Below are positions 776 to 35,631 of a DNA stretch of 36,007 nucleotides, in pieces. The notes under the pieces were generated by a model. It worked only from the letters and a program-made list of their open reading frames with translations. It had not been told where the DNA came from and did not search any database. The position numbers and the translations under genes were made by a program. Source of the stretch: a virus; UHGV virus genome UHGV-0135626, one strand, 5' to 3'. Every line of letters starts with the position of its first letter. Position 1 is the first letter of the stretch.

Positions 776-1054
776 TTACGGCAACCTGCTCAGTATTTCC
801 TCTAGATCTTTTTTTGTCATATTGGAGTTCTCATAGATGCGCATGATTTTCTCACGCGTCTTAGCGGAAACCCCAACGGCAGATGTGACTTTGTCAAATT
901 CAGCCATAGTCATCGTCTCCAGAATGGCATTGATAACTTCAGCCTTAGACATCTTGATTTTTTTCTCTTTGAGTTTTATTTGAAATTTTCCAAGTTTTTC
1001 ATTGGCCTTATCAGACAATGCCACTTGGCAATAAGTTGTTTTCTTTTCGCTCAT
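776..1054 (-). CDS. Small hypothetical protein, 92 aa, possibly DNA-binding
   Basis: Complete ORF starting 2 nt after the helicase stop, same strand. Lys-rich; no clear catalytic motif. Confidence 0.55.
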   Translation of the reverse strand: MSEKKTTYCQVALSDKANEKLGKFQIKLKEKKIKMSKAEVINAILETMTMAEFDKVTSAVGVSAKTREKIMRIYENSNMTKKDLEEILSRLP

Positions 1055-2657: not shown

Positions 2658-2680
2658 TATAATAAGTAAGTGATTACTTA
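2658..2680 (+). promoter_or_regulatory. Candidate promoter/operator: consensus -10 hexamer abutting a palindrome
   Basis: Perfect TATAAT at 2658-2663, then TAAGTAA-gtga-TTACTTA (7-bp arms, 2663-2680) ending at the first codon of the ParB-like operon. The -35 element is weak. Confidence 0.35.
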
Positions 2681-3379
2681 GTGTATTGTAGCAATAAAAT
2701 GGATGTAAAAATCACGATTTTGCAGGTTGATGTTGCCAACCTTCGCCCGAATACCTGGAACACCAATTCGGTTGGTGCGCAGAATTTTGAAAAACTGAAA
2801 GGTTCTATCGAAAAATTGGGCTTTTTTAAGCCAATTTTGGCTCGTGAACTTGAAGATGGATTTTTTGAAATCCTCGGCGGCGAACATCGCTGGCGTGCCG
2901 CTATTGAGCAAGGAATTTCAACGGTTCCAGTGCTTTCTGTGGGCAAAATTAGCGATGTCGTAGCTAAACAGATGTCACTGGTGGACAACGAGCGATACGG
3001 TGAAGACGACCAAATCGCATTGCAACGCTTCATTGAAGAAATTCAGTCAGAACTTGACTATCAACTGTCTGAAATCGCCCCGTATGACGACGAAATCTCG
3101 ATGGTTTTAGCAAAAGAGGCGGCAATCGACCTTGAAGCACTGGAGGCGTTGTCTCGTGGTAGTGATGAGCCTGTCGATACCGACAAACGAGAGAAAACCG
3201 AACGTGTGGGTGCGGAACATCAGACCATGCGCTTCAAAGTAACTTTCGATGCGTCAGATCGTGTTGCAGAAACCATAAAAAACATCATCAAAGAGCAGGC
3301 TATTAACACCGGTAATGAAATGGAGAACGCTGGTGAGGCTCTGGTGTGGCTGGTCGACTACTACAAGGAGCGTATGTAA
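2681..3379 (+). CDS. ParB/Srx-like nuclease-domain protein, copy 1
   Basis: ORF begins with GTG at 2681 (alternative ATG at 2699); neither has a strong SD. ParB N-terminal box FEILGGEHRWRAAIEQG; acidic C-terminal half. Stop overlaps the next start (TAATG at 3377-3381). Confidence 0.75.
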   Translation: MYCSNKMDVKITILQVDVANLRPNTWNTNSVGAQNFEKLKGSIEKLGFFKPILARELEDGFFEILGGEHRWRAAIEQGISTVPVLSVGKISDVVAKQMSLVDNERYGEDDQIALQRFIEEIQSELDYQLSEIAPYDDEISMVLAKEAAIDLEALEALSRGSDEPVDTDKREKTERVGAEHQTMRFKVTFDASDRVAETIKNIIKEQAINTGNEMENAGEALVWLVDYYKERM

Positions 3380-4047
3380 TGACCAAAAAGTTTGAAATCG
3401 TATATCGCGACCCGGCAGATCTTATTCCCTATGAGATGAATGCCAAAAAGCATGATGAACAGCAGATCAGAGATCTGGCCGCAGCCATTAAAAAGCGCGG
3501 ATTTGACCAGCCAATTACGGTCGATAAGAACGACGTAATTATTACTGGTCATGGCCGCCGTGAGGCTGCAATTTTTGCTGGACTTGAGCGCGTACCGGTT
3601 ATTGTTCGCGATGATCTCAGTGATGACGAGGTTCGTGCGAAGCGCCTTGAAGATAACCGACTTGCCAGCATTGATTACGATGCAATTAAGCTACAGAAAG
3701 AGCTTGAGTCGCTTGTTCTGGACGATATCGAGGTTTTCGGCTTTGAAGAGCGTGAGTTGAATGTTCTCGTTGGCAGTATGACAGAAGAAATGGACACCGA
3801 CTCGCTAGTTATCGATCTTGGCGAAGAAACTAAACGACAGAAGGATGAACACACCGAGATCAGTCGTGAAGTTGCAGCGGAAGAAGTACGTGTTGTCGAC
3901 GTATTGGGCTTTAAAACGCTTCCTGCTGGCTCTGCCATTGTTGTTGGTGATTTGCTTGCCCACATGGAAGAAATGACGGGAGAAAGCGGGGTAGACGCAT
4001 TTGTGGCATATGCGGAGAAGATCTCTTCCGGGGAGATGGCTGCATGA
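3379..4047 (+). CDS. ParB/Srx-like nuclease-domain protein, copy 2
   Basis: Start taken at ATG 3379 (MTKKFEIV), overlapping the upstream stop; the track ORF begins at 3346. ParB box IITGHGRREAAIFAG; acidic C-terminal region. Confidence 0.75.
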   Translation: MTKKFEIVYRDPADLIPYEMNAKKHDEQQIRDLAAAIKKRGFDQPITVDKNDVIITGHGRREAAIFAGLERVPVIVRDDLSDDEVRAKRLEDNRLASIDYDAIKLQKELESLVLDDIEVFGFEERELNVLVGSMTEEMDTDSLVIDLGEETKRQKDEHTEISREVAAEEVRVVDVLGFKTLPAGSAIVVGDLLAHMEEMTGESGVDAFVAYAEKISSGEMAA

Positions 4048-4709
4048 GCAAATACATCATCAACGTATCGTTTCAGACACGCGTAAATAAAACCACGCGC
4101 ACGTTGGAAATCGCTGAGTCGTTCGGGCTTGGTCTGGACGAAAAAGAGTGGACGCTTTACGACAATCTGGAGCTGGAAGTGAAGCAGGGCGATGTGGTGT
4201 ACATCACCGGCCAATCCGGTTCCGGCAAATCCGTTGTGCTGCGCGAGTTGCAACGACAGATGAAGGATGAAGGGTTGTCTGTAGCCTCCATCGATGATTT
4301 TACCTTCGATAATGAGGTTAACGTCATCGATCAGTTGGGCAAAACGACCAGTGATGCGCTTGGGTTGTTATCTATGGCTGGTCTGAACGATGCATATCTG
4401 TTTGTTCGCAAGCCTTCTGAAATGTCAGACGGTCAGAAATATCGTCTCAAGATTGCCAAACTGATTGAGTCAGGCGCTAAAGTGTGGGCTGCTGACGAGT
4501 TCGGTGCTGTTTTAGACCGTGTAACCGCTCAGGTTGTGGCATCTAACCTCCAGCGTGTCGCTCGAAAGGTTGGTGCGACGGTAATGGTGGCGACGACTCA
4601 CGAAGACCTGAAGAACGCGCTGCGCCCGGATATGCAGATCACCAAGCACTACAAAGAACGCGTGAAGGTGGAATATCACAATGGCAGTCATGATGAGGTC
4701 CATTCATGA
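4044..4709 (+). CDS. Stand-alone ABC-type ATPase, nucleotide-binding domain only
   Basis: 221 aa. Walker A GQSGSGKS, signature-like SDGQKYRL, Walker B VWAADEF, H-loop TTHED. SD GGGGAG 8 nt upstream; ATGA overlap with both neighbours. No membrane domain or partner. Confidence 0.8.
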   Translation: MSKYIINVSFQTRVNKTTRTLEIAESFGLGLDEKEWTLYDNLELEVKQGDVVYITGQSGSGKSVVLRELQRQMKDEGLSVASIDDFTFDNEVNVIDQLGKTTSDALGLLSMAGLNDAYLFVRKPSEMSDGQKYRLKIAKLIESGAKVWAADEFGAVLDRVTAQVVASNLQRVARKVGATVMVATTHEDLKNALRPDMQITKHYKERVKVEYHNGSHDEVHS

Positions 4710-5596
4710 CGGACATCATCATTAAACGCTACCGCCCTGAAGAGTTTCCGCGTCATCTGGACTTTCTGGAGCGAATGACTGTCACAAAGGGAACTGTAGA
4801 GGACTGGCACGCTCTTAAGTCGCTTCACTACAAAACAGACGGCAAACCTTTCGCGCCAACTTACTATCGCTGCGAACTTGATGACCGTCTGGTGGGCGTC
4901 GTGGTTATGGCTTACCCGAAACTACTGTTGGCACCTCGCCACCGCATGTTTCCTAAGTTGAAACCAACCACTAATACCACCGTGGCTAACCAGTACTGGG
5001 GTCGGTACGTGAATAACAACTTTGCGGTGATCAGTCGCTCAGTTGTGGATACTCAGTATCGTGGCGTAGGCGTCTCTTATCGAATGATTAACCTGGTTAG
5101 CAGGATGCATGACCGGCCAATCATTGAGATCCAGTCCTCGATGAGCAAATACAATCCCTTCGCCATGAAAGCAGGGTTTAAGTTCATCCGCCCTGAGCGA
5201 CCGAAGAGCTATGAAAGTGCACTGCGTGTATTCCAGCGCCATTTCCGTTCCGACCCGGGTGATAACGAGGCGATCGTCAAAGAGTTGTTCGCAATGAGCG
5301 AGTCTCGTCGTCGCCGTGCACTGCGTGATCTGGTGGCGGACTACCACAAGAACAGTTCCCTGGCAAAAGCTGGGCGGAATCGTGGCACGACGATTCAGGA
5401 CATTGCCGACAGTCTGGTGGACGAGGCCAGCATTGTGAAGCTGCTCAAGGACATTCACAACCTGAGCTTTACGTCTCCGTTGTATGGTGTGTACCGAAAC
5501 CCTGACTTTGGCCGTCGACTGCCTGACACGCTGCCACTGCTGGCATTCGACAAACAACCTTTGGATAAACCGTTAGAAATTGCTTTACCGGCATAA
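4706..5596 (+). CDS. GNAT-like acyltransferase-domain protein with a C-terminal extension of about 120 aa
   Basis: 296 aa. GNAT acyl-CoA motif QYRGVGVSYRMI and downstream NPFAMKAGFKF. SD GAGG 7 nt upstream; ATGA overlap with the ABC ATPase stop. Confidence 0.6.
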   Translation: MTDIIIKRYRPEEFPRHLDFLERMTVTKGTVEDWHALKSLHYKTDGKPFAPTYYRCELDDRLVGVVVMAYPKLLLAPRHRMFPKLKPTTNTTVANQYWGRYVNNNFAVISRSVVDTQYRGVGVSYRMINLVSRMHDRPIIEIQSSMSKYNPFAMKAGFKFIRPERPKSYESALRVFQRHFRSDPGDNEAIVKELFAMSESRRRRALRDLVADYHKNSSLAKAGRNRGTTIQDIADSLVDEASIVKLLKDIHNLSFTSPLYGVYRNPDFGRRLPDTLPLLAFDKQPLDKPLEIALPA

Positions 5597-5605
5597 GGAT
5601 TTGCC

Positions 5606-5872
5606 ATGACGTTAACCGATAAACAAAAGGACATCATCAAAACGCTCAATCTCGGTTATGAGCGAGGTCATCTACTTGACCTGGACGAATTGCTTGAAGT
5701 TTTGCCGTACAAGACAACCAAGCAAAGTATCCAGTTCTCAATTCGCGCTCTGATAAAAAAGGGGCTGGTGGAGAAAGGGCATACGCGCCAACGCAGTGAC
5801 AATCGCTATCACCGCCGAACTCTTGGGTTAACCACTTTAGGTCGAGCCAAAGCGAAGTTACTGGTGATGTAA
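5606..5872 (+). CDS. Small basic protein, putative winged-helix DNA-binding regulator
   Basis: 88 aa, SD AAGGA 5 nt upstream, 9 nt after the GNAT gene stop. Basic C-terminus (RQRSDNRYHRRTLG); the helix-turn-helix assignment is pattern-level only. Confidence 0.5.
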   Translation: MTLTDKQKDIIKTLNLGYERGHLLDLDELLEVLPYKTTKQSIQFSIRALIKKGLVEKGHTRQRSDNRYHRRTLGLTTLGRAKAKLLVM

Positions 5873-5896: not shown

Positions 5897-5951
5897 CCTG
5901 CTTCTGTATATATAAATAATAAGAAACTTATTAAATATATACGGAAGCAGG
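5897..5951. repeat. Long imperfect inverted repeat with an AT-rich interior
   Basis: CCTGCTTC (5897-5904) pairs with GAAGCAGG (5944-5951); the interior also pairs imperfectly (tgtatatat...atatatacg). Confidence 0.5.
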
Positions 5952-5990
5952 CTTAATAAGACATGCCCAGACCTAATTAAACACCCCAGA

Positions 5991-6059
5991 AAACAAGTTG
6001 GTTAGCAGATGCAGTAAACAAGTTGTTTTAGAGCGCATGGACGCGCTCTGTGTGTTTTA
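5991..6059 (+). promoter_or_regulatory. Repeat cluster upstream of terS; candidate regulatory or packaging-recognition region
   Basis: AAACAAGTTG twice (5991-6000, 6016-6025), the second forming the near-palindrome AAACAAgTTGTTT (6016-6028). GTTTTAGAG twice (6023-6031, 6051-6059) flanking hairpin AGAGCGC-atggac-GCGCTCT. No clean sigma70 -35/-10 found. Confidence 0.35.
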
Positions 6060-6068
6060 GAGGGATCT

Positions 6069-6701
6069 ATGACGGTCGAAAAAGACGAGGTAAAAACTCG
6101 CCTGACACCAGCGGAGTGGGCCGAAGCTGAAGCCAAATGGACGTCAGGCGAATATACACTCTCAAAGCTGGAGGAAGAGTACGGCATTCGTCGTGAAACA
6201 CTCTCCAGACATTTCAAAAAGCGAGGATTAGAGAAAGGCGCGGACTCTGTTGGGAAGATGGTTCGTGAGTCTCTTAAATCTGACGCAGAGCTTCGCGCTA
6301 AAGCCCGTGCGGAAAAGATAGAAGAACGTCGTACACGTTATGACGGCTGGGCGTATGCGTTGGGGCAGATGGTGATGGTCGAAGTCACTACGGCCAAACG
6401 TGAGGGTAAGCCTTTAGGGGCGATTGAGGATTCTCTCAAGAGCTTACAGAGAGCAAGTAATACCCTTGCAAAATGCTTTGAAGTTTCGTCCAAAGCATTG
6501 GGCATGGATCATGCGGAAAATGACGAGGAAGAAATTCCGAACCTGGTATTTGGTGAGCTTACGCCTTCCCAGGTGGCGAAATTACGTCAGGAAGACGACG
6601 AGCCTGAAATCATCGATGACGAATTGCTTGAGACGTTGGAAGAAGAAGCTCTAAGCGAATTTGATGCGACAGATGATGGAAGTGAAGGGGAGGACGAATA
6701 A
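6069..6701 (+). CDS. terS: Terminase small subunit
   Basis: 210 aa immediately upstream of terL with TAATG overlap. N-terminal HTH-like segment (YTLSKLEEEYGIRRETLSRHFKKRG) and a very acidic C-terminus. SD AGAGGGA. Confidence 0.65.
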   Translation: MTVEKDEVKTRLTPAEWAEAEAKWTSGEYTLSKLEEEYGIRRETLSRHFKKRGLEKGADSVGKMVRESLKSDAELRAKARAEKIEERRTRYDGWAYALGQMVMVEVTTAKREGKPLGAIEDSLKSLQRASNTLAKCFEVSSKALGMDHAENDEEEIPNLVFGELTPSQVAKLRQEDDEPEIIDDELLETLEEEALSEFDATDDGSEGEDE

Positions 6702-7983: not shown

Positions 7984-9558
7984 ATGGAATTGAACGACAA
8001 ACAAATTAAGGATCTGGTGGCGCGACGCCACCCGGAATACGAAAAGAAAAAAGAACATTGGGACTTCCTCGCCAGCACTTACGCTGGCGGGCGTGGTTGG
8101 TTTACAGACAATATCTTTCGTTACTTTAAAGAGGGAGATCAGGAGTTTAAGGAGCGAGTTGAACGTGCTTATCGCTTCAACCACACTCGTGAGGTGGTAA
8201 ACCTCATCAACAAATATCTCTTTAAAGAAGACATTCATAGAAATATCGAAGAGGCACCAGAGCAGATCCGCAATTTCTGGAAACGTGCGACTCGCCAGAA
8301 TGCCTCTATTGACTCATTTATGGCCGCTATTGATTTGCAGTCGTCTATTTACGGTCGCATATGGGTTGTTGTCGATAGCACGATGAGTGGTGATGTTGAG
8401 TCAGTAGCTGACGAGAAAAAGAAAGATGCTCGCGCCTACGCCTACTGGATTTCACCTCAGCAAATGCTGGATGTGGCATGGGACGACGACGGGAATATGT
8501 TGTGGGCGTTAATTGTGGAAGTCGCTCGTGATGACGCAGATCCTTTTACTTCTACAGGTCAGGAATACCAACGTTATCGTCTGTGGACACAAAACGAGTG
8601 GTATCTGTTCCGTGAGGAAGTGAAGAAGGGCGCTGGTGGAGCAGGTCGCCGTCAGGCAAAAGTTATTTTAGAGGATAGCGGTGAGCATAATCTCGGCGTA
8701 GTTCCTGTGTTTCCTGTTGATTGTATTGGAGAAAGTGAATCACCGTATTTCAGCCCATCGTTGATCGATGATATCGCTTATCTTGATCGTGCGGTTGCAA
8801 ACTATCTGTCAAACCTTGATGCCATTATTCAGGATCAGACATTTAGCCAGTTGGCTATACCGGTACAGTCGCTTTTACCTGGTGATGAAAACCACACTAA
8901 AGTGCTTGAAATGGGCACAAAGCGAGTCTTCACCTACGATTCTGAAGGTGGAAACCAGCCGTTTTATCTGTCACCAGACCCGAAACAAGCTCAGATGATC
9001 ATCACTACGATTAAGACGGTGATTAACGAAATCTACCATTCAGTTGGTGTAGCTGGTGAGCGAACGAAGCAGGACAACGCACAGGGAATCGATAATTCAT
9101 CTGGTGCCGCAAAAATGTATGACTTCCAGCGTGTAAATAGCTTGCTTGTCACAAAAGCAGAGCGTCTGGAAAGGGCTGAACGCCAAATCATGCTACTGGT
9201 TGCGAAATGGATGGGGGTAGATCTGGACGAAGACCACTCTTTAATTGCGTATCCAGAAAGTTTCGATATTCGTGGCCTTACTGATGAATTTTCTGTTGCC
9301 GAGAAACTGTCATTACTTCAGGCACCGGACTCTGTACGTCGTCACCAGATGGAAATGCTTATTGAGAAGATTTTCCCGAACATTACTGAGGCGATGAAAA
9401 AGGAATTTGATAAAGATCTCTTGAATTTTCCTCCAAAAAATGATCTAAATACCCTTGAAAATAAGTCAGTACTTACTTATGATCGTGGTGCGGCCCAAGA
9501 AAGCGGGCAAGATCAACCCCGAGGGAATGGGGACTCATCTACTCAAGAGAACGAGTGA
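7984..9558 (+). CDS. Portal protein
   Basis: 524-aa ORF directly after terL, with an acidic and Gly-rich C-terminus; assigned by size and conserved gene order. Confidence 0.75.
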   Translation: MELNDKQIKDLVARRHPEYEKKKEHWDFLASTYAGGRGWFTDNIFRYFKEGDQEFKERVERAYRFNHTREVVNLINKYLFKEDIHRNIEEAPEQIRNFWKRATRQNASIDSFMAAIDLQSSIYGRIWVVVDSTMSGDVESVADEKKKDARAYAYWISPQQMLDVAWDDDGNMLWALIVEVARDDADPFTSTGQEYQRYRLWTQNEWYLFREEVKKGAGGAGRRQAKVILEDSGEHNLGVVPVFPVDCIGESESPYFSPSLIDDIAYLDRAVANYLSNLDAIIQDQTFSQLAIPVQSLLPGDENHTKVLEMGTKRVFTYDSEGGNQPFYLSPDPKQAQMIITTIKTVINEIYHSVGVAGERTKQDNAQGIDNSSGAAKMYDFQRVNSLLVTKAERLERAERQIMLLVAKWMGVDLDEDHSLIAYPESFDIRGLTDEFSVAEKLSLLQAPDSVRRHQMEMLIEKIFPNITEAMKKEFDKDLLNFPPKNDLNTLENKSVLTYDRGAAQESGQDQPRGNGDSSTQENE

Positions 9559-14956: not shown

Positions 14957-14970
14957 TAAGTATATACTTA
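14957..14970. promoter_or_regulatory. Perfect 14-bp palindrome TAAGTATATACTTA upstream of the major tail gene
   Basis: Exact self-complementary 14-mer in the 74-bp gap before the major tail protein start; same TAAGTA half-site as the other intergenic palindromes. Confidence 0.4.
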
Positions 14971-21436: not shown

Positions 21437-21518
21437 GCATCTGGATAAGTAAGTACTAATTTACTATCATTGTGGCGCTGACAGGATGTTAGCGCCTACT
21501 TATTTCAAGGATGAAACA

Positions 21519-30486: not shown

Positions 30487-31527
30487 ATGGTTACAAAAAC
30501 AGTAATTCCTGATGACATCAAAACGCTAAAATCGGATGTTAGTAAATTAAAAACCGATCAAGGAAACTACGCAACAAAATCTTATGTAGACAATAAAACA
30601 ACATGGAATGGTTATTGCAATTTAATCTATGATCAAAAAACATTGCCAACAACTGGAACTATATTCAGCGGTAAGCTGCATTTGTCAAATAAGACTGGTG
30701 AAACGGAAAACGCTTATAGTGACATATATACCAGAAAAAATATTGATGGTACTAAAGATACAATGACGAGGATCGTCACACATAACGGGACAAAAGGTAT
30801 CTTTTGGGACTTTAGTGATCTTAACGGAGGAACTTTAATTTTTCCAGGCAGTGGTGGTTATCTTAAGATGGGGAACTGCCTCATGTCGTATGGTGTGCGG
30901 GGAAGTAACGCGCTTATTAAGTTTGATTACACCGACACATTACAGATCAAATATGCCAATCATGGGTCAACCATGACATTAAACACACAGGGAACCGCTT
31001 ATGCTGGTGTTACTGCTCAATTGTGGGGCAACTCCAGTCGTCCAGTTGTTTATGAAATTAGGGATGATGGCGGGCTTTTTTTGTTTTATGCACAAAGGAA
31101 CCCAGATAAAACCTATCAGCTTGAGATAAACGGGCCATGCAAGGCTACATCATTCGACCAGGTGTCGGACAGAGATCTTAAAGAAAACATTCAGGTTATT
31201 GATAATGCCACTGAGCGCATCAGATTAATGAATGGGTATACTTACCGTCTCAAGTCTAATGGTATGCCTTATGCTGGCGTTATTGCGCAAGAGGCACTTA
31301 ATGCAATCCCTGAATCAGTTGGTAGCACAATAAAGTACAAGAGCGGGGACAATGGGTCTGATGGAGAAGAGGGAGAAAGATACTATACCGTCGATTACTC
31401 AGGCGTAACGGGTTTGCTTGTTCAGGTAGCCAGAGAGTCAGACGACAGGATAACAGCACTGGAAGAAGAAAACGCAGAATTAAGACAAAGATTATCTGCA
31501 ATTGAGGCGGCGCTTGCGTCTAAATAA
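30487..31527 (+). CDS. Tail fibre protein with C-terminal intramolecular chaperone (peptidase S74-type) domain
   Basis: 346 aa, SD GGAG 7 nt upstream. Residues 227-234 SDRDLKEN match the autoproteolysis site of endosialidase/T5-type fibre chaperone domains; a terminal helical segment (EEENAELRQRLSAIEAALASK) follows. Confidence 0.75.
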   Translation: MVTKTVIPDDIKTLKSDVSKLKTDQGNYATKSYVDNKTTWNGYCNLIYDQKTLPTTGTIFSGKLHLSNKTGETENAYSDIYTRKNIDGTKDTMTRIVTHNGTKGIFWDFSDLNGGTLIFPGSGGYLKMGNCLMSYGVRGSNALIKFDYTDTLQIKYANHGSTMTLNTQGTAYAGVTAQLWGNSSRPVVYEIRDDGGLFLFYAQRNPDKTYQLEINGPCKATSFDQVSDRDLKENIQVIDNATERIRLMNGYTYRLKSNGMPYAGVIAQEALNAIPESVGSTIKYKSGDNGSDGEEGERYYTVDYSGVTGLLVQVARESDDRITALEEENAELRQRLSAIEAALASK

Positions 31528-34015: not shown

Positions 34016-34285
34016 CTACTCCATGCTTTTCAGACGATCAGCAGCTCGTTTCAGCTTGTCGTTCGGTGCCGGAGGATTGCTTATAGCGTCCATAACCAGA
34101 TTCCAGGATTCTTCATTCAGAACTAGTCTACGGTGTTGCTCTATAACTTTCACGGCACGTTCAGATGCACTGCTAACCATAAACTGAGTAATGCTCTGGT
34201 TAGACATTGCGGCAGCTTCCTCGATGATGCTTTTATCGTCATCGGTTAATCTCAAATCGATGCGCTGCTTTTTTAGTGCTGACAT
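34016..34285 (-). CDS. DUF1778-type (RHH) antitoxin, TacA/AtaR-like
   Basis: Start at ATG 34285 (MSALKKQRIDLRLTDDDKSIIEEAA), preceded by a perfect SD AGGAGG with 5-nt spacer, giving 89 aa. The track ORF extends to a TTG at 34324. Confidence 0.8.
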   Translation of the reverse strand: MSALKKQRIDLRLTDDDKSIIEEAAAMSNQSITQFMVSSASERAVKVIEQHRRLVLNEESWNLVMDAISNPPAPNDKLKRAADRLKSME

Positions 34286-34324
34286 GTATTCCTCCTGATG
34301 GCCGTGATGTAGGAAGGCCATCAA

Positions 34325-34603
34325 TCTCCTCTGTTCAAACTGAGTTTTCGACTCAAAAATTACTTTAAAAGGCTATAGCCCATTACGTGTGCATTATCAA
34401 ATTGTGTACGGCATATCACCGTACTTGTAATATAGAGGTCATTGTTACTTTTTTCAACAGACAAATACAAGCTATGATTGCCAATTGTTAACCACAACCT
34501 ACCATTTAACCTTTACACCGCAGCCGTAGGCATTTAGGCTATATCACATATAAGAAAACAAGTTGTTTCAGACGATAATTATATACGCAAAGGGAACTCT
34601 CCA
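34325..34603. promoter_or_regulatory. Divergent control region between the toxin-antitoxin operon and parA; candidate operators or centromere
   Basis: 279-bp non-coding gap holding palindrome GGCTATAGCC (34371-34380), inverted repeat GTACGG-N7-CCGTAC (34406-34424) and near-palindrome AAACAAgTTGTTT (34556-34568) about 35 bp before parA. Confidence 0.45.
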
Positions 34604-35272
34604 ATGACCAAGATCTTTGTGGTTGGCGGCACAAAGGGCGGGCCTGGCAAATCCACCGTTGCCCAGCAAATTGCCGTTTGCCTGAAAGTCAAAAAGAAGA
34701 AGAAGGTTTATATTACCGATATAGATATTCAGCGCACGACAACGAGCTGGTGTGAAGACCGTCGACAGAACGAAGACCTTGAGCTGATTCCTTTTGCATA
34801 CGTTCAGGATGACATCATTAAGCACCTAAAATCGCTTCAGGGTAGAGCTGAGTTTGTAGTGGTAGATGCTGGTGGCTTCGACTCCGAAATTCAGCGACAA
34901 GCGATGCTGATGGCTGACGTTATCATTATCCCGCTGCGTCCTAAGCGTCGTGATTTGAAATCTTTACGTGACATCGATCCTATTATCGACAATGTTCGCA
35001 ATGTAAACGATAAAGTGAAGGTCCGCGCGGTCATGAACCAGTGCCCGGCTTTGCCATCACAAGTGTCTCGCATTCTGGCGGCTAAAGAGATTGTTGAGAC
35101 GTTTGGAATCGAGTCTGCGCCAGTCAATCTATATAACCGCAACGTCTATGATGATGCGGAAGAGTCTGGTCGTTCTATCTTTGAAATGACCGGTAGCGAG
35201 CGCGACAAAAAGGCGGAAGCCGAGTTTGAAGAATTTGTAGATTATCTGTTGAGTCTGGAGGAAGAAGAATAA
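34604..35272 (+). CDS. parA: ParA-family partition ATPase (small type Ib form)
   Basis: 222 aa with deviant Walker A GGTKGGPGKST at the N-terminus and no N-terminal HTH extension. SD AAAGGGAA; TAATG overlap with the next gene. Confidence 0.85.
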   Translation: MTKIFVVGGTKGGPGKSTVAQQIAVCLKVKKKKKVYITDIDIQRTTTSWCEDRRQNEDLELIPFAYVQDDIIKHLKSLQGRAEFVVVDAGGFDSEIQRQAMLMADVIIIPLRPKRRDLKSLRDIDPIIDNVRNVNDKVKVRAVMNQCPALPSQVSRILAAKEIVETFGIESAPVNLYNRNVYDDAEESGRSIFEMTGSERDKKAEAEFEEFVDYLLSLEEEE

Positions 35273-35631
35273 TGTCCATGAAAATGGGTGACCTAGCAAA
35301 GCGCAAAGAGCCTGATGCACCGGCTAAGAACACAACTCCTTTGCGCCAACCAGTCAGACCACAAGGACGCCCGACTCGTGGCAAAGAGAAAATTAAAAGC
35401 CGCACTATGTCACTGGAAGACGAATACTTCGAGCTTCTGGAAATGATGAAGTTTATCCCTCGTTTCGAGAAGTTCACCCGCTCTGATGTGATTCGTGCTG
35501 CTATTTTCCATCTGGCAGAGAAGTCACCGCAGGAAATCGAGGACATCGTAAAGCTGAACGAGGCGATCACAGCTGCCGATGTCACGATGCGTACCGATGA
35601 AATTAAACGCGAGTTGATGAAGAAAGGTTAA
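35272..35631 (+). CDS. Small RHH-type centromere-binding partition protein (ParG-like)
   Basis: 119 aa, translationally coupled to parA. Basic, probably disordered N-terminus and a C-terminal ribbon-helix-helix-like region. Confidence 0.65.
   Translation: MSMKMGDLAKRKEPDAPAKNTTPLRQPVRPQGRPTRGKEKIKSRTMSLEDEYFELLEMMKFIPRFEKFTRSDVIRAAIFHLAEKSPQEIEDIVKLNEAITAADVTMRTDEIKRELMKKG

What the first reader, a model, noticed from the sequence alone, without database searches (positions are those of the whole stretch)
6016..6028. 13-bp near-palindrome AAACAAgTTGTTT present upstream of both terS and parA
The identical 13-mer occurs at 6016-6028, about 40 bp before terS, and at 34556-34568, about 35 bp before parA, with a degenerate copy at 5991-6003. 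Identical palindromes in the control regions of the packaging operon and the partition operon suggest a shared DNA-binding factor linking virion production with plasmid maintenance.
Basis: seen in the sequence. Interest (0 to 1): 0.55.

Follow-up and report, generated by a model that had tools for sequence, protein, structure and literature searches.

The report
Dispersed operator palindrome of a phage-plasmid
The 13-base palindrome seen before the packaging and partition genes is real, but it is only two of about twenty copies of a regulatory site placed in front of many silent operons of an SSU5-like phage-plasmid, which most likely lets one element-encoded protein switch much of the phage programme off.

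Summary
AAACAAGTTGTTT is exact at 6016-6028 and 34556-34568, with a one-mismatch copy at 5991-6003; none is expected by chance.

The window is part of an SSU5-like phage-plasmid, 99.5% identical to E. coli phage-plasmids such as Cyrano/pLF82.

In whole genomes of this clade, AAACAA-N-TTGTTT occurs 17-20 times (0.3-0.5 expected). Nearly all copies are intergenic and sit at two fixed positions in promoter cassettes:
- about +7 to +19, between a GATAAT-type -10 and the ribosome site;
- over the -35 region.

Every gene behind a copy except the parA operon is at background in published lysogen RNA-seq.

More distant relatives lack this sequence. In one of them (Moellerella), terS and parA again share a different identical 13-mer.

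The motif is therefore a lineage-specific operator of an element-encoded global silencer, not a private terS-parA link.

The binder is not identified. The best candidate is ParA's small partner protein (35272-35631). The rival is an FljA-like tandem-Hfq protein acting on the mRNA leaders. The 88-aa protein is unlikely.

No description of the motif was found in the literature searched.

The parts
5991..6003 (+). Motif copy terS-O1 (AAACAAGTTGGTT, one mismatch). It is preceded by AGA and by a -10-like TAATTA.
   Evidence: Conserved in 42 distinct IMG/VR loci while the spacer to O2 varies freely; absent from the Klebsiella clade.
6016..6028 (+). Motif copy terS-O2 (exact AAACAAGTTGTTT), directly abutting the leader hairpin.
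   Evidence: The orthologous copy is present in SSU5, pJN2-26, pMT1 and pKSB1_9A_3.
34556..34568 (+). Motif copy at parA (exact). It lies 10 nt after a -10-like TATATC (34540-34545) and 35 nt before the parA ATG.
   Evidence: It is kept (at most 1 mismatch) in relatives whose parA upstream region is otherwise unalignable.
5974..5979 (+). TAATTA, the putative -10 element of the terS (late operon) promoter, at the same offset from the motif as in the other class A cassettes.
   Evidence: Alignment of 32 class A sites; consensus TAAT.A.ACCAA.AAGA-AAACAAnTTGTTT. This is an inference: no transcription start has been mapped, and the simple sigma-70 scan found no full promoter here.
6029..6059 (+). 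Terminator-like hairpin (GAGCGC-loop-GCGCTC) plus a T-rich tail in the terS leader, between the motif and the terS ribosome site.
   Evidence: Compensatory changes (cgc/gcg to cac/gtg) are seen among relatives. The fold is -27.5 kcal/mol with the two motif copies pairing.
34604..35272 (+). parA, a small Walker-type partition ATPase and the first gene of the operon behind the motif.
   Evidence: Pfam MipZ/AAA_31/CbiA/ParA. It is the only motif-preceded operon above background in lysogens (50/89/55 against a median of 9.8).
35272..35631 (+). 119-aa partner protein of ParA (RHH-like by sequence pattern only). Best candidate for the DNA binder.
   Evidence: The putative strand IKSRTMS and helix FTRSDVIRAAI are invariant down to 48% identity. 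The strand is IKSRTVS in the motif-less lineages. The protein is expressed in the lysogen. The fold is not confirmed.
6069..6701 (+). terS, the first gene of the ~28 kb late operon controlled from the motif-bearing leader.
   Evidence: Annotated in Cyrano and SSU5; phrog_867; at background in the lysogen.
5606..5872 (+). Judged unlikely.
   Evidence: No Pfam or PDB match. Silent in the lysogen (7.8). Conserved at 56-60% in Pectobacterium, Morganella and Xenorhabdus elements that lack the motif.

Best explanation
The 13-mer is the core of a dispersed, element-specific operator. About 18-20 copies of AAACAA-N-TTGTTT per ~108 kb genome sit at two fixed places in repeated promoter cassettes.
- Class A lies 10-13 nt downstream of a GATAAT/TAATTA -10, inferred to be about +7 to +19, and 11-35 nt before the start codon.
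- Class B lies exactly 19 nt upstream of the -10, over the -35 region.

A dimeric, element-encoded protein binds these sites. It keeps the promoters or leaders of early, middle and late (terS) operons off in the plasmid state, and it throttles the parA operon by feedback.

Shown: copy number, placement, conservation, lineage specificity and silence of the downstream genes in lysogens.

Inferred: repression, transcription start positions and the identity of the binder.

The most likely binder is ParA's 119-aa partner (35272-35631), at about 0.35. That would make the partition protein a global silencer, as omega is in pSM19035 or KorB in IncP plasmids (comparison from memory). An FljA-like protein (about 0.2) or an unidentified repressor (about 0.25) are the alternatives.
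For: Counts. Perfect copies number 9, 11, 11 and 13 in Cyrano, SSU5, pJN2-26 and pKSB1_9A_3, against 0 in simulations (run for the first three). At up to 1 mismatch the counts are 18, 20, 17 and 19, against 0.3-0.5 expected.

Central base. It carries no information (15 A, 11 C, 15 G, 14 T), and the two arms tolerate variants symmetrically, as expected for a two-fold symmetric DNA site.

Placement. The cassettes have fixed architecture, and B+A pairs 51 bp apart flank single promoters. Several -10 elements are of the extended type (TGnGATAAT), which should not need an activator.

Expression. All downstream genes except parA are at background in lysogen RNA-seq (PMC9928086 S1 Table).

Footprints. 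At terS both copies are conserved while the spacer varies. At parA the motif survives in otherwise unalignable upstream regions.

Lineage specificity. Pectobacterium, Morganella, Xenorhabdus and Providencia relatives (terL 80-82% identical for the first three; terS 61% for Providencia) lack the motif. This argues against a host factor.

For the ParA partner as binder:
- Its own operon carries the site and is the only one partly on.
- Moellerella terS and parA share a different identical 13-mer, ATTAGTAATTAAT (P = 0.004).
- Xenorhabdus has ATTGGTAATTAAT before terS.
- The putative DNA-reading strand differs M to V between lineages.
Against: - No binding data and no mapped transcription starts exist.
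- The RHH fold of the 119-aa protein is not supported by Pfam, PDB sequence or profile search, hhalign against a ParG sequence recalled from memory, or a low-confidence AlphaFold model.
- There is no repeat array near parA of the kind type Ib centromeres normally have.
- Yersinia pMT1 lacks this ParA/partner pair yet keeps 6 intact sites; it is evolutionarily young, so this is weak evidence.
- SSU5 is described as virulent although it encodes the partner and all sites.
- In Providencia, terS and parA share no such element.
- The putative strand is nearly identical in motif-less lineages.
- Class A sites lie in the 5'UTR next to the ribosome site, which fits an RNA-level operator equally well.
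Confidence: 0.7

Rival explanations
1. RNA operator. The motif acts in the mRNA leaders and is bound by the element's FljA-like protein (CYRAN_114 in Cyrano, encoded outside this window). Binding blocks ribosome access and triggers decay, as FljA does on fliC mRNA.
For: - The protein matches PF03614 at 1e-80 and is about 40% identical to a protein annotated as a phase-1 flagellin repressor (FljA-type).
- A confident model (pLDDT 84) shows two tandem Sm/Hfq domains; Hfq hits have probability 1.0 and rmsd 1.2-1.4 A.
- It is present in every motif-bearing genome, including pMT1, and absent from Pectobacterium and from the Morganella and Xenorhabdus terS-region loci examined. None of its 831 plasmid tblastn hits is listed under Moellerella, Providencia or Pectobacterium.
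- It is kept in 341 Klebsiella and 62 Yersinia plasmids, whose hosts are classically non-motile (my own knowledge), so its target should lie in the element.
- Class A sites end 11-35 nt before the ATG, in unstructured leaders.
- The Salmonella fliC leader carries CAAGTTGT 19 nt before the ATG, inside a 10-nt segment that the fljB leader lacks (primers in PMC3410353).
Against: - Exact reverse-complement symmetry with a free centre is a signature of double-stranded DNA. Single-stranded RNA recognition gives no reason for it.
- The RNA hairpin is marginal, and variant sites show no compensatory pairing.
- Class B copies lie upstream of promoters at a rigid 19-nt spacing.
- pKSB1_9A_3 keeps the unchanged motif although its FljA-like protein is only 36% identical.
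- Many other genes share the same clade distribution.
- The 8-nt fliC match is post hoc (about 0.003 by chance).
Confidence: 0.2
2. Operator of another, unidentified element-encoded DNA-binding repressor. This would be an immunity-type repressor in the manner of P1 C1 or mycobacteriophage L5 gp71 'stoperators', with the parA copy being just one regulated promoter.
For: The same anatomy and expression evidence as the main explanation applies. Several small clade-restricted proteins have no assigned function: CYRAN_37, the Cra-like CYRAN_62, CYRAN_113 and CYRAN_117.
Against: - The recognisable HTH repressor CYRAN_45 has different repeats (GGTAAG..CTTACC) in its own control region and no copy of this motif.
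- CYRAN_45 is missing from SSU5, which keeps all sites.
- No other lysogen-expressed protein has a DNA-binding signature.
Confidence: 0.2
3. Dispersed centromere sites only. The palindromes would be partition sites for the ParA system scattered over the genome, as in the linear phage-plasmid N15, with no role in transcription.
For: N15 uses four single palindromic centromere sites (IR1-4) rather than a tandem array like F sopC (PMC7205306). That they are dispersed over the genome is from memory. One copy lies at parA, and there is no local repeat array.
Against: - Copies occupy rigid positions relative to -10 elements and ribosome sites, with flank asymmetry following gene direction.
- Copies are clustered, with 8 in 5.5 kb of small early genes.
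- Centromere function alone explains none of this placement.
Confidence: 0.05
4. Packaging signal. The two copies before terS would be small-terminase binding sites, like the lambda cosB R sites, next to a cos/pac site in the AT-rich palindrome 5897-5951.
For: The layout is palindrome, then two repeats, then terS. The SSU5 and Cyrano linear records start at window ~5934, in the centre of the palindrome.
Against: About 16 further copies lie far from any packaging function. The Klebsiella clade has one copy only. The record start may be a convention.
Confidence: 0.03

Closest known systems
Omega (pSM19035) and ParG (TP228): RHH centromere-binding partners of small ParA ATPases that also repress promoters (from memory)
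   Same: A small protein is encoded directly after a small Walker ParA. Its site overlaps the par promoter (autoregulation). For omega, the same sites occur at several promoters and coordinate maintenance functions.
   Different: Omega and ParG bind arrays of short direct or inverted repeats. Here there are single 13-bp palindromes, about 20 of them, in front of phage lytic operons. Neither the RHH fold nor binding has been shown for this protein.
KorB O_B operators of IncP plasmids (from memory)
   Same: 13-bp 6-N-6 palindromes, about a dozen per replicon, lie at or near promoters. They are bound by the partition protein, which acts as a global repressor.
   Different: KorB is a ParB-family HTH protein. 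The two ParB_N proteins of this element (2681-4047) are silent in lysogens and are not linked to parA.
Mycobacteriophage L5 gp71 'stoperators' and phage P1 C1 operators (from memory)
   Same: Tens of 13-17 bp repressor sites are scattered through a temperate phage genome (P1 is also a phage-plasmid). They lie in short intergenic regions, oriented with transcription, and silence lytic genes in the prophage.
   Different: Those sites are asymmetric and bound by the immunity repressor. Here the core is a perfect palindrome, and the recognisable HTH repressor appears to use other sites.
FljA-fliC mRNA operator of Salmonella (PMC4122451; PMC2652032)
   Same: An FljA-family protein is encoded by the element. 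The site lies in the 5'UTR just upstream of the ribosome site. There is an 8-nt identical core, CAAGTTGT.
   Different: FljA has one known target, whereas here there would be about 20. The palindromic symmetry and the class B copies upstream of promoters have no counterpart in fliC.
N15 SopB dispersed centromeres (PMC7205306; their effect on late gene expression is recalled from Ravin et al. 2008, not read here)
   Same: A phage-plasmid whose partition sites are single palindromes scattered among phage genes. It offers a link between partition and late expression.
   Different: There are four sites, not twenty; the system is a type Ia SopB HTH system; and the sites are not at fixed promoter positions.

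Membership tests
Type Ib partition operator/centromere (ParG/omega type) | Small Walker-type ParA followed by a small partner gene | tested here: met
   ParA has Pfam MipZ/AAA_31/CbiA/ParA hits. The 119-aa ORF overlaps the parA stop, and the synteny is kept in all relatives.
Type Ib partition operator/centromere (ParG/omega type) | Partner has a ribbon-helix-helix fold | tested here: inconclusive
   There is no Pfam hit, no PDB sequence or profile hit, and hhalign against a recalled ParG sequence gives probability 0.1. The AF2 monomer has pLDDT 63 and no fold match. Only the pattern of tail, short conserved strand and two helices fits.
Type Ib partition operator/centromere (ParG/omega type) | Array of several repeats next to the par operon | tested here: not met
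   There is a single palindrome and no repeat family in 34200-34620.
Type Ib partition operator/centromere (ParG/omega type) | Partner binds the site and represses parA | not testable with these tools
   This needs EMSA, footprinting or reporter assays.
Dispersed prophage repressor operators (L5 stoperators, P1 C1 operators) | Many copies, intergenic, oriented with transcription | tested here: met
   17-20 copies against 0.3-0.5 expected. At least 15 of 18 are intergenic in Cyrano. The AGA/TCT flank faces the promoter core.
Dispersed prophage repressor operators (L5 stoperators, P1 C1 operators) | Downstream genes silent in the lysogen | tested here: met
   Values are 5-25 against a median of 9.8 for all motif-preceded genes except parA.
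Dispersed prophage repressor operators (L5 stoperators, P1 C1 operators) | Bound by the immunity repressor | tested here: inconclusive
   The control region of the HTH candidate CYRAN_45 lacks the motif, and SSU5 lacks that gene but keeps the sites.
FljA-type mRNA operator | FljA-family (PF03614) protein encoded by the element | tested here: met
   PF03614 at 1e-80 and a tandem Sm fold. The gene lies outside this window (Cyrano 100780-101301).
FljA-type mRNA operator | Site in the 5'UTR adjacent to the ribosome site and similar to the fliC operator | tested here: inconclusive
   Class A sites end 11-35 nt before the ATG and share the 8-nt CAAGTTGT core with fliC. Class B copies and the palindromic symmetry do not fit.
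Lambda-type cosB / small-terminase sites | Sites confined to the packaging region | tested here: not met
   About 16 copies lie elsewhere.
Host nucleoid-protein site (IHF, WATCAANNNNTTR) | Asymmetric consensus, the same in all enterobacterial hosts | tested here: not met
   The core is a symmetric palindrome. The sequence is replaced in Morganellaceae and Pectobacterium relatives.
Known RNA family / stable RNA structure | Rfam match or a stable conserved fold of the motif | tested here: not met
   There are no Rfam hits in the window. Single-copy leaders fold no better than shuffles (z +0.7 to +1.5).

The most novel reading that the evidence does not exclude
A plasmid-maintenance protein is the master silencer of the phage programme. 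ParA's small partner would bind about 20 identical palindromes, so that the level of the partition operon directly sets whether replication, early and virion genes are off. Plasmid segregation and the lysis-lysogeny state would then be read from one protein. In the alternative novel reading, a tandem-Hfq FljA-like protein silences about 20 phage mRNAs post-transcriptionally, which would be a prophage 'immunity' exerted on RNA.
Probability: 0.4. Interest if true: 0.8.

Novelty: new variant of a known kind. Interest (0 to 1): 0.6.

Why it matters
SSU5-like phage-plasmids are common in E. coli, Klebsiella, Salmonella, Enterobacter and Yersinia: more than 800 records in the plasmid collection, including pHCM2 and pMT1. 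Some carry resistance genes. How they stay silent as plasmids and switch to virion production is essentially unknown.

A single 13-bp site that marks about 20 promoters gives three things:
- a ready map of the regulon;
- a simple handle for finding the regulator by pull-down, EMSA or ChIP;
- a way to predict immunity groups, because the sequence is lineage-specific.

If the binder is the partition protein or the FljA/Hfq-like protein, it would be an unusual kind of prophage repressor.

Tried and rejected
Ideas rejected
- Chance: rejected by shuffles.
- P1-type late promoter with the palindrome at -22: rejected. There is no -10 at a fixed distance downstream, and in many copies the Shine-Dalgarno sequence follows the motif directly.
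- Host factor (IHF and other E. coli regulators recalled from memory): no match, and the motif is lineage-specific.
- CYRAN_45 HTH repressor as binder: its own region has other repeats, and SSU5 lacks it.
- 88-aa protein as binder: silent in lysogens and conserved in motif-less relatives.
- Small proteins behind motif copies: no DNA-binding domain found.

Tests that did not discriminate
- Covariation using divergent homologues of the partner (48-64% identity) and of the FljA-like protein (36%): the motif is unchanged in all of them.
- pMT1, which lacks the partner but keeps the sites: too young to be decisive.
- The Pectobacterium variant AAATAAnTTATTT is not enriched genome-wide (6 against 3.4 expected).
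- The Providencia element shows no terS-parA sharing.
- Scanning IMG/VR for the extended motif returned mainly SSU5-like contigs (~100 kb, many already fetched via terS) and some short or unrelated ones.

Searches that found nothing
- Fold confirmation of the 119-aa protein failed.
- The enriched k-mer TGGCGGCAT in Pectobacterium turned out to be coding.
- The primary FljA papers (Yamamoto 2006; Aldridge 2006) are not held in the library.
- The literature search found no description of the motif.

Full report
**1. Observation**

The 13-mer AAACAAGTTGTTT occurs exactly at 6016-6028 and 34556-34568, and nowhere else in the window. None of 100 dinucleotide shuffles contained it. The copy at 5991-6003 differs at one base, AAACAAGTTGGTT. 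The motif ends 40 nt before the terS ATG (6069) and 35 nt before the parA ATG (34604). It is a 6-N-6 palindrome. Two upstream regions of this size and composition share a 13-mer in 5 of 3000 Markov shuffles.

**2. What the window is**

The window is 98.5-99.7% identical to the E. coli phage-plasmids CMS-2020a, PhiR41_1 and Cyrano (pLF82). It is about 80% identical to Salmonella phage SSU5 and about 79% to Klebsiella phage-plasmids. More than 800 plasmid records share the backbone. I fetched whole genomes of the following:
- Cyrano
- SSU5
- Klebsiella pJN2-26
- Yersinia pMT1
- Pectobacterium Drgb1
- Klebsiella pKSB1_9A_3

**3. The motif is genome-wide**

| Genome | Perfect AAACAA-N-TTGTTT | Up to 1 mismatch |
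|---|---|---|
| Cyrano | 9 | 18 |
| SSU5 | 11 | 20 |
| pJN2-26 | 11 | 17 |
| pKSB1_9A_3 | 13 | 19 |
| Second-order Markov simulations (Cyrano, SSU5, pJN2-26 only) | 0 | 0.3-0.5 |

- The central base carries no information (15 A, 11 C, 15 G, 14 T). The two arms vary to the same small extent at mirror positions.
- The copies lie at orthologous places. These are before terS (two copies; one in the Klebsiella clade), parA, the replicative helicase, cobT, RNR-beta, tciA and other genes, plus a cluster of small early genes at Cyrano 93-98.5 kb.
- At least 15 of the 18 Cyrano copies are intergenic.

The window holds only three copies of a roughly twenty-copy system. A position-weight scan of the window adds nothing convincing: there is one weak site inside a coding region at 1025-1045 on the minus strand.

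**4. Anatomy**

Aligning the sites shows two classes.

- **Class A (32 sites in three genomes).** The layout is a -10-like element (GATAAT, TAATTA or TATTAT, several preceded by TGn), then AAC-ACCAAcAAGA, then the palindrome, then often the Shine-Dalgarno sequence directly. The motif ends 11-35 nt before the start codon. No transcription start can lie downstream of it in those cases. The palindrome must therefore sit at about +7 to +19 of the transcript, roughly where lacO1 sits (an inference; no start site has been mapped).
- **Class B (14 sites).** The palindrome is followed by TCTgCCTTtT and, exactly 19 nt later, by the -10, so it covers the -35 region.

B+A pairs 51 bp apart bracket single promoters. 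Examples are Cyrano 93114/93165, SSU5 88319/88370 and 93662/93713, and pJN2-26 28539/28590. The extra AGA (class A) or TCT (class B) always faces the promoter core.

At terS the order is:
1. TAATTA (5974-5979)
2. copy 1 (5991-6003)
3. copy 2 (6016-6028)
4. a GC hairpin with a T-rich tail (6029-6059)
5. the ribosome site

At parA the order is TATATC (34540-34545), ten bases, then the motif.

**5. Conservation**

In 42 distinct IMG/VR versions of the terS upstream region, both copies are kept while the 12-nt spacer between them changes freely. The hairpin shows compensatory changes. In relatives whose ParA partner is only 48-64% identical, the parA upstream region is unalignable except for cATAAGA-AAACAnnTTGTTT. 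These are phylogenetic footprints.

**6. Expression**

Published RNA-seq of the Cyrano lysogen (Misson et al. 2023, PMC9928086, S1 Table) gives 5-25 normalised reads for every gene that follows a motif copy, against a prophage median of 9.8. The exception is the parA operon, at 50, 89 and 55. Promoters with good, partly extended -10 elements that are nevertheless silent call for a repressor. The palindrome is the only other element these promoters share.

**7. Lineage specificity**

More distant SSU5-like elements (terL 80-82% identical) in Pectobacterium, Morganella and Xenorhabdus, and a Providencia element (terS 61% identical), have no copies of the motif, including at terS and parA. Their hosts share the usual enterobacterial nucleoid proteins, so the binder should be encoded by the element.

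In Moellerella, the terS and parA upstream regions again share an identical 13-mer near-palindrome with a different sequence, ATTAGTAATTAAT (P = 0.004). Other lineages give weaker or negative results:
- Xenorhabdus has ATTGGTAATTAAT at the same place before terS.
- Pectobacterium has AAATAAATTATTA before parA and AAATTAGTTATTT before terS, but that variant is not enriched genome-wide.
- Providencia shows no sharing.

The spread to about 20 promoters is a feature of the Enterobacteriaceae clade.

**8. Who binds?**

*(a) The 88-aa protein (5606-5872).* It has no family or structure match. It is silent in the lysogen and conserved at 56-60% in motif-less relatives. It is unlikely to be the binder.

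*(b) CYRAN_45, the recognisable HTH repressor next to the integrase.* Its divergent control region has GGTAAG..CTTACC repeats and no copy of this motif. SSU5 lacks the gene yet keeps all sites. It probably serves a second palindrome family (see section 10).

*(c) ParA's 119-aa partner (35272-35631).*
- For: it is expressed in the lysogen, and its own operon carries the site and is the only one partly on, which is the behaviour of an autoregulated repressor.
- For: its putative strand IKSRTMS and helix FTRSDVIRAAI are invariant down to 48% identity, in step with the invariant motif. The motif-less lineages have IKSRTVS.
- For: a compact palindrome with a free centre suits a single two-fold symmetric dimer.
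- Against: the RHH fold could not be confirmed by any tool.
- Against: there is no repeat array at parA.
- Against: pMT1 lacks the protein but keeps six sites, and SSU5 is reported as virulent despite having it.

*(d) The FljA-like protein (Cyrano 100780-101301, outside the window).*
- For: it matches PF03614 at 1e-80 and models confidently as two tandem Hfq-like domains.
- For: it is present in all motif-bearing genomes and absent from the motif-less ones.
- For: it is retained in hundreds of Klebsiella and Yersinia plasmids, whose hosts are classically non-motile (my own knowledge), which suggests a target within the element.
- For: FljA binds an operator in the fliC mRNA leader (PMC4122451). 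The Salmonella fliC leader, verified from a published primer, carries CAAGTTGT 19 nt before the ATG, inside a 10-nt segment that the fljB leader lacks. This resembles a class A site.
- Against: reverse-complement symmetry is not expected for single-stranded RNA recognition.
- Against: the hairpin is marginal and variant sites show no compensatory pairing.
- Against: class B sites lie upstream of promoters.
- Against: a 36%-identical FljA-like protein coexists with the unchanged motif.

**9. Verdict**

The finding is real and is the visible tip of a dispersed, lineage-specific operator system. That it is an operator of an element-encoded global regulator I hold at about 0.7-0.8.

| Candidate binder | Probability |
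|---|---|
| ParA partner (35272-35631) | about 0.35 |
| Another, unidentified repressor | about 0.25 |
| FljA-like protein acting on RNA | about 0.2 |

I found no description of the motif in the literature available here. In kind it resembles P1 C1 operators, L5 stoperators and the omega/KorB global partition-repressor circuits. These comparisons are from memory, apart from the N15 centromere sites, which are cited from PMC7205306.

**10. Side observations**

- **A second palindrome family.** TAAGTA-N2-6-TACTTA occurs at window 2663-2680, 9462-9479, 14957-14970 and 21446-21459, and about 15 times in Cyrano. It resembles the repeats at the CYRAN_45 control region. Pectobacterium, whose CYRAN_45 homologue is 39% identical, has a variant, GTATGTA..TACATAC.
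- **The 55-bp AT-rich palindrome at 5897-5951.** It is where the SSU5 and Cyrano linear records begin, and it has sister copies elsewhere in the genome.
- **Known RNA families.** No Rfam family matches anywhere in the window.

Noticed in passing
window 6029-6059: A terminator-like GC hairpin plus T-rich tail lies in the terS leader, directly after the motif. Relatives show compensatory stem changes. TGTTTTAGAG is repeated on both sides of the hairpin (6024-6033 and 6053-6062). The late operon may need antitermination or attenuation control in addition to the operator.
   Followed up: partly
window 5897-5951 (also Cyrano 31160-31215 and 78130-78190): A 55-bp AT-rich palindrome is flanked by CCTGCTTC...GAAGCAGG. 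The SSU5 and Cyrano linear GenBank records begin at its centre (window ~5934). It could be a cos/pac site, a bidirectional terminator or another binding site. Similar copies occur after CYRAN_30 and near 78 kb.
   Followed up: partly
window 2663-2680, 9462-9479, 14957-14970, 21446-21459 (about 15 copies in Cyrano): A second dispersed palindrome family, TAAGTA-N2-6-TACTTA (GATAAGTA..TACTTATC), lies before the ParB-like operon, inside the late operon and before many middle genes. It resembles the GGTAAGTGCTTACC repeats in the CYRAN_45/46 control region. Pectobacterium has a variant, GTATGTA..TACATAC, together with a 39%-identical CYRAN_45 homologue. This may be a second regulon belonging to the HTH repressor.
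   Followed up: partly
Cyrano L003:780-1301 (minus strand), outside the window: The 'transcriptional regulator' is an FljA-family protein (PF03614). Its confident model is two tandem Hfq/Sm domains. It is a core gene of the Enterobacteriaceae SSU5-like clade, found even in Klebsiella and Yersinia pestis plasmids.
   Followed up: yes
window 35272-35631: This ORF is annotated in Cyrano as 'RelE/ParE putative toxin' (CYRAN_29). Position, synteny and sequence pattern indicate that it is ParA's partner protein instead, so the annotation looks wrong.
   Followed up: partly
window 2681-5872: An operon of two ParB_N-domain proteins, two ABC-type ATPases (one fused to an acetyltransferase-like domain) and the 88-aa protein lies directly upstream of terS. 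It is conserved across all lineages examined and silent in lysogens. Its function is unknown.
   Followed up: no
SSU5 L004 about 41776-42761, compared with Cyrano 39-43 kb: SSU5 lacks the block CYRAN_43-46 (a very highly expressed unknown gene, the integrase, the HTH repressor and its divergent partner). This may explain why SSU5 is described as virulent (PMC5427195).
   Followed up: partly
L218 9300-9375, L219 9300-9375, L234 18190-18247, L240 2340-2397: In Morganella, Xenorhabdus, Pectobacterium and Moellerella the terS leader is a conserved block, TATGGGAGCACGGC...ACACTGCGGAAAAAGGAATTTTCGAGTG. A similar block lies before Pectobacterium gene 99703. In the Enterobacteriaceae clade this block is replaced by the operator plus hairpin.
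   Followed up: no
Pectobacterium L234/L235 (upstream of 51730, 71909, 77254, 65406): Leaders in the motif-less Pectobacterium element often carry only the left half next to the ribosome site (AAACAAATTAAGGA). The A-rich half may be an older leader feature from which the palindrome evolved.
   Followed up: no
window 1025-1045 (minus strand): A motif-like sequence, AAGAAAACAACTTATTG, lies inside the first codons of the 92-aa ORF 776-1054 (CYRAN_117, expressed in lysogens). It is probably chance.
   Followed up: no
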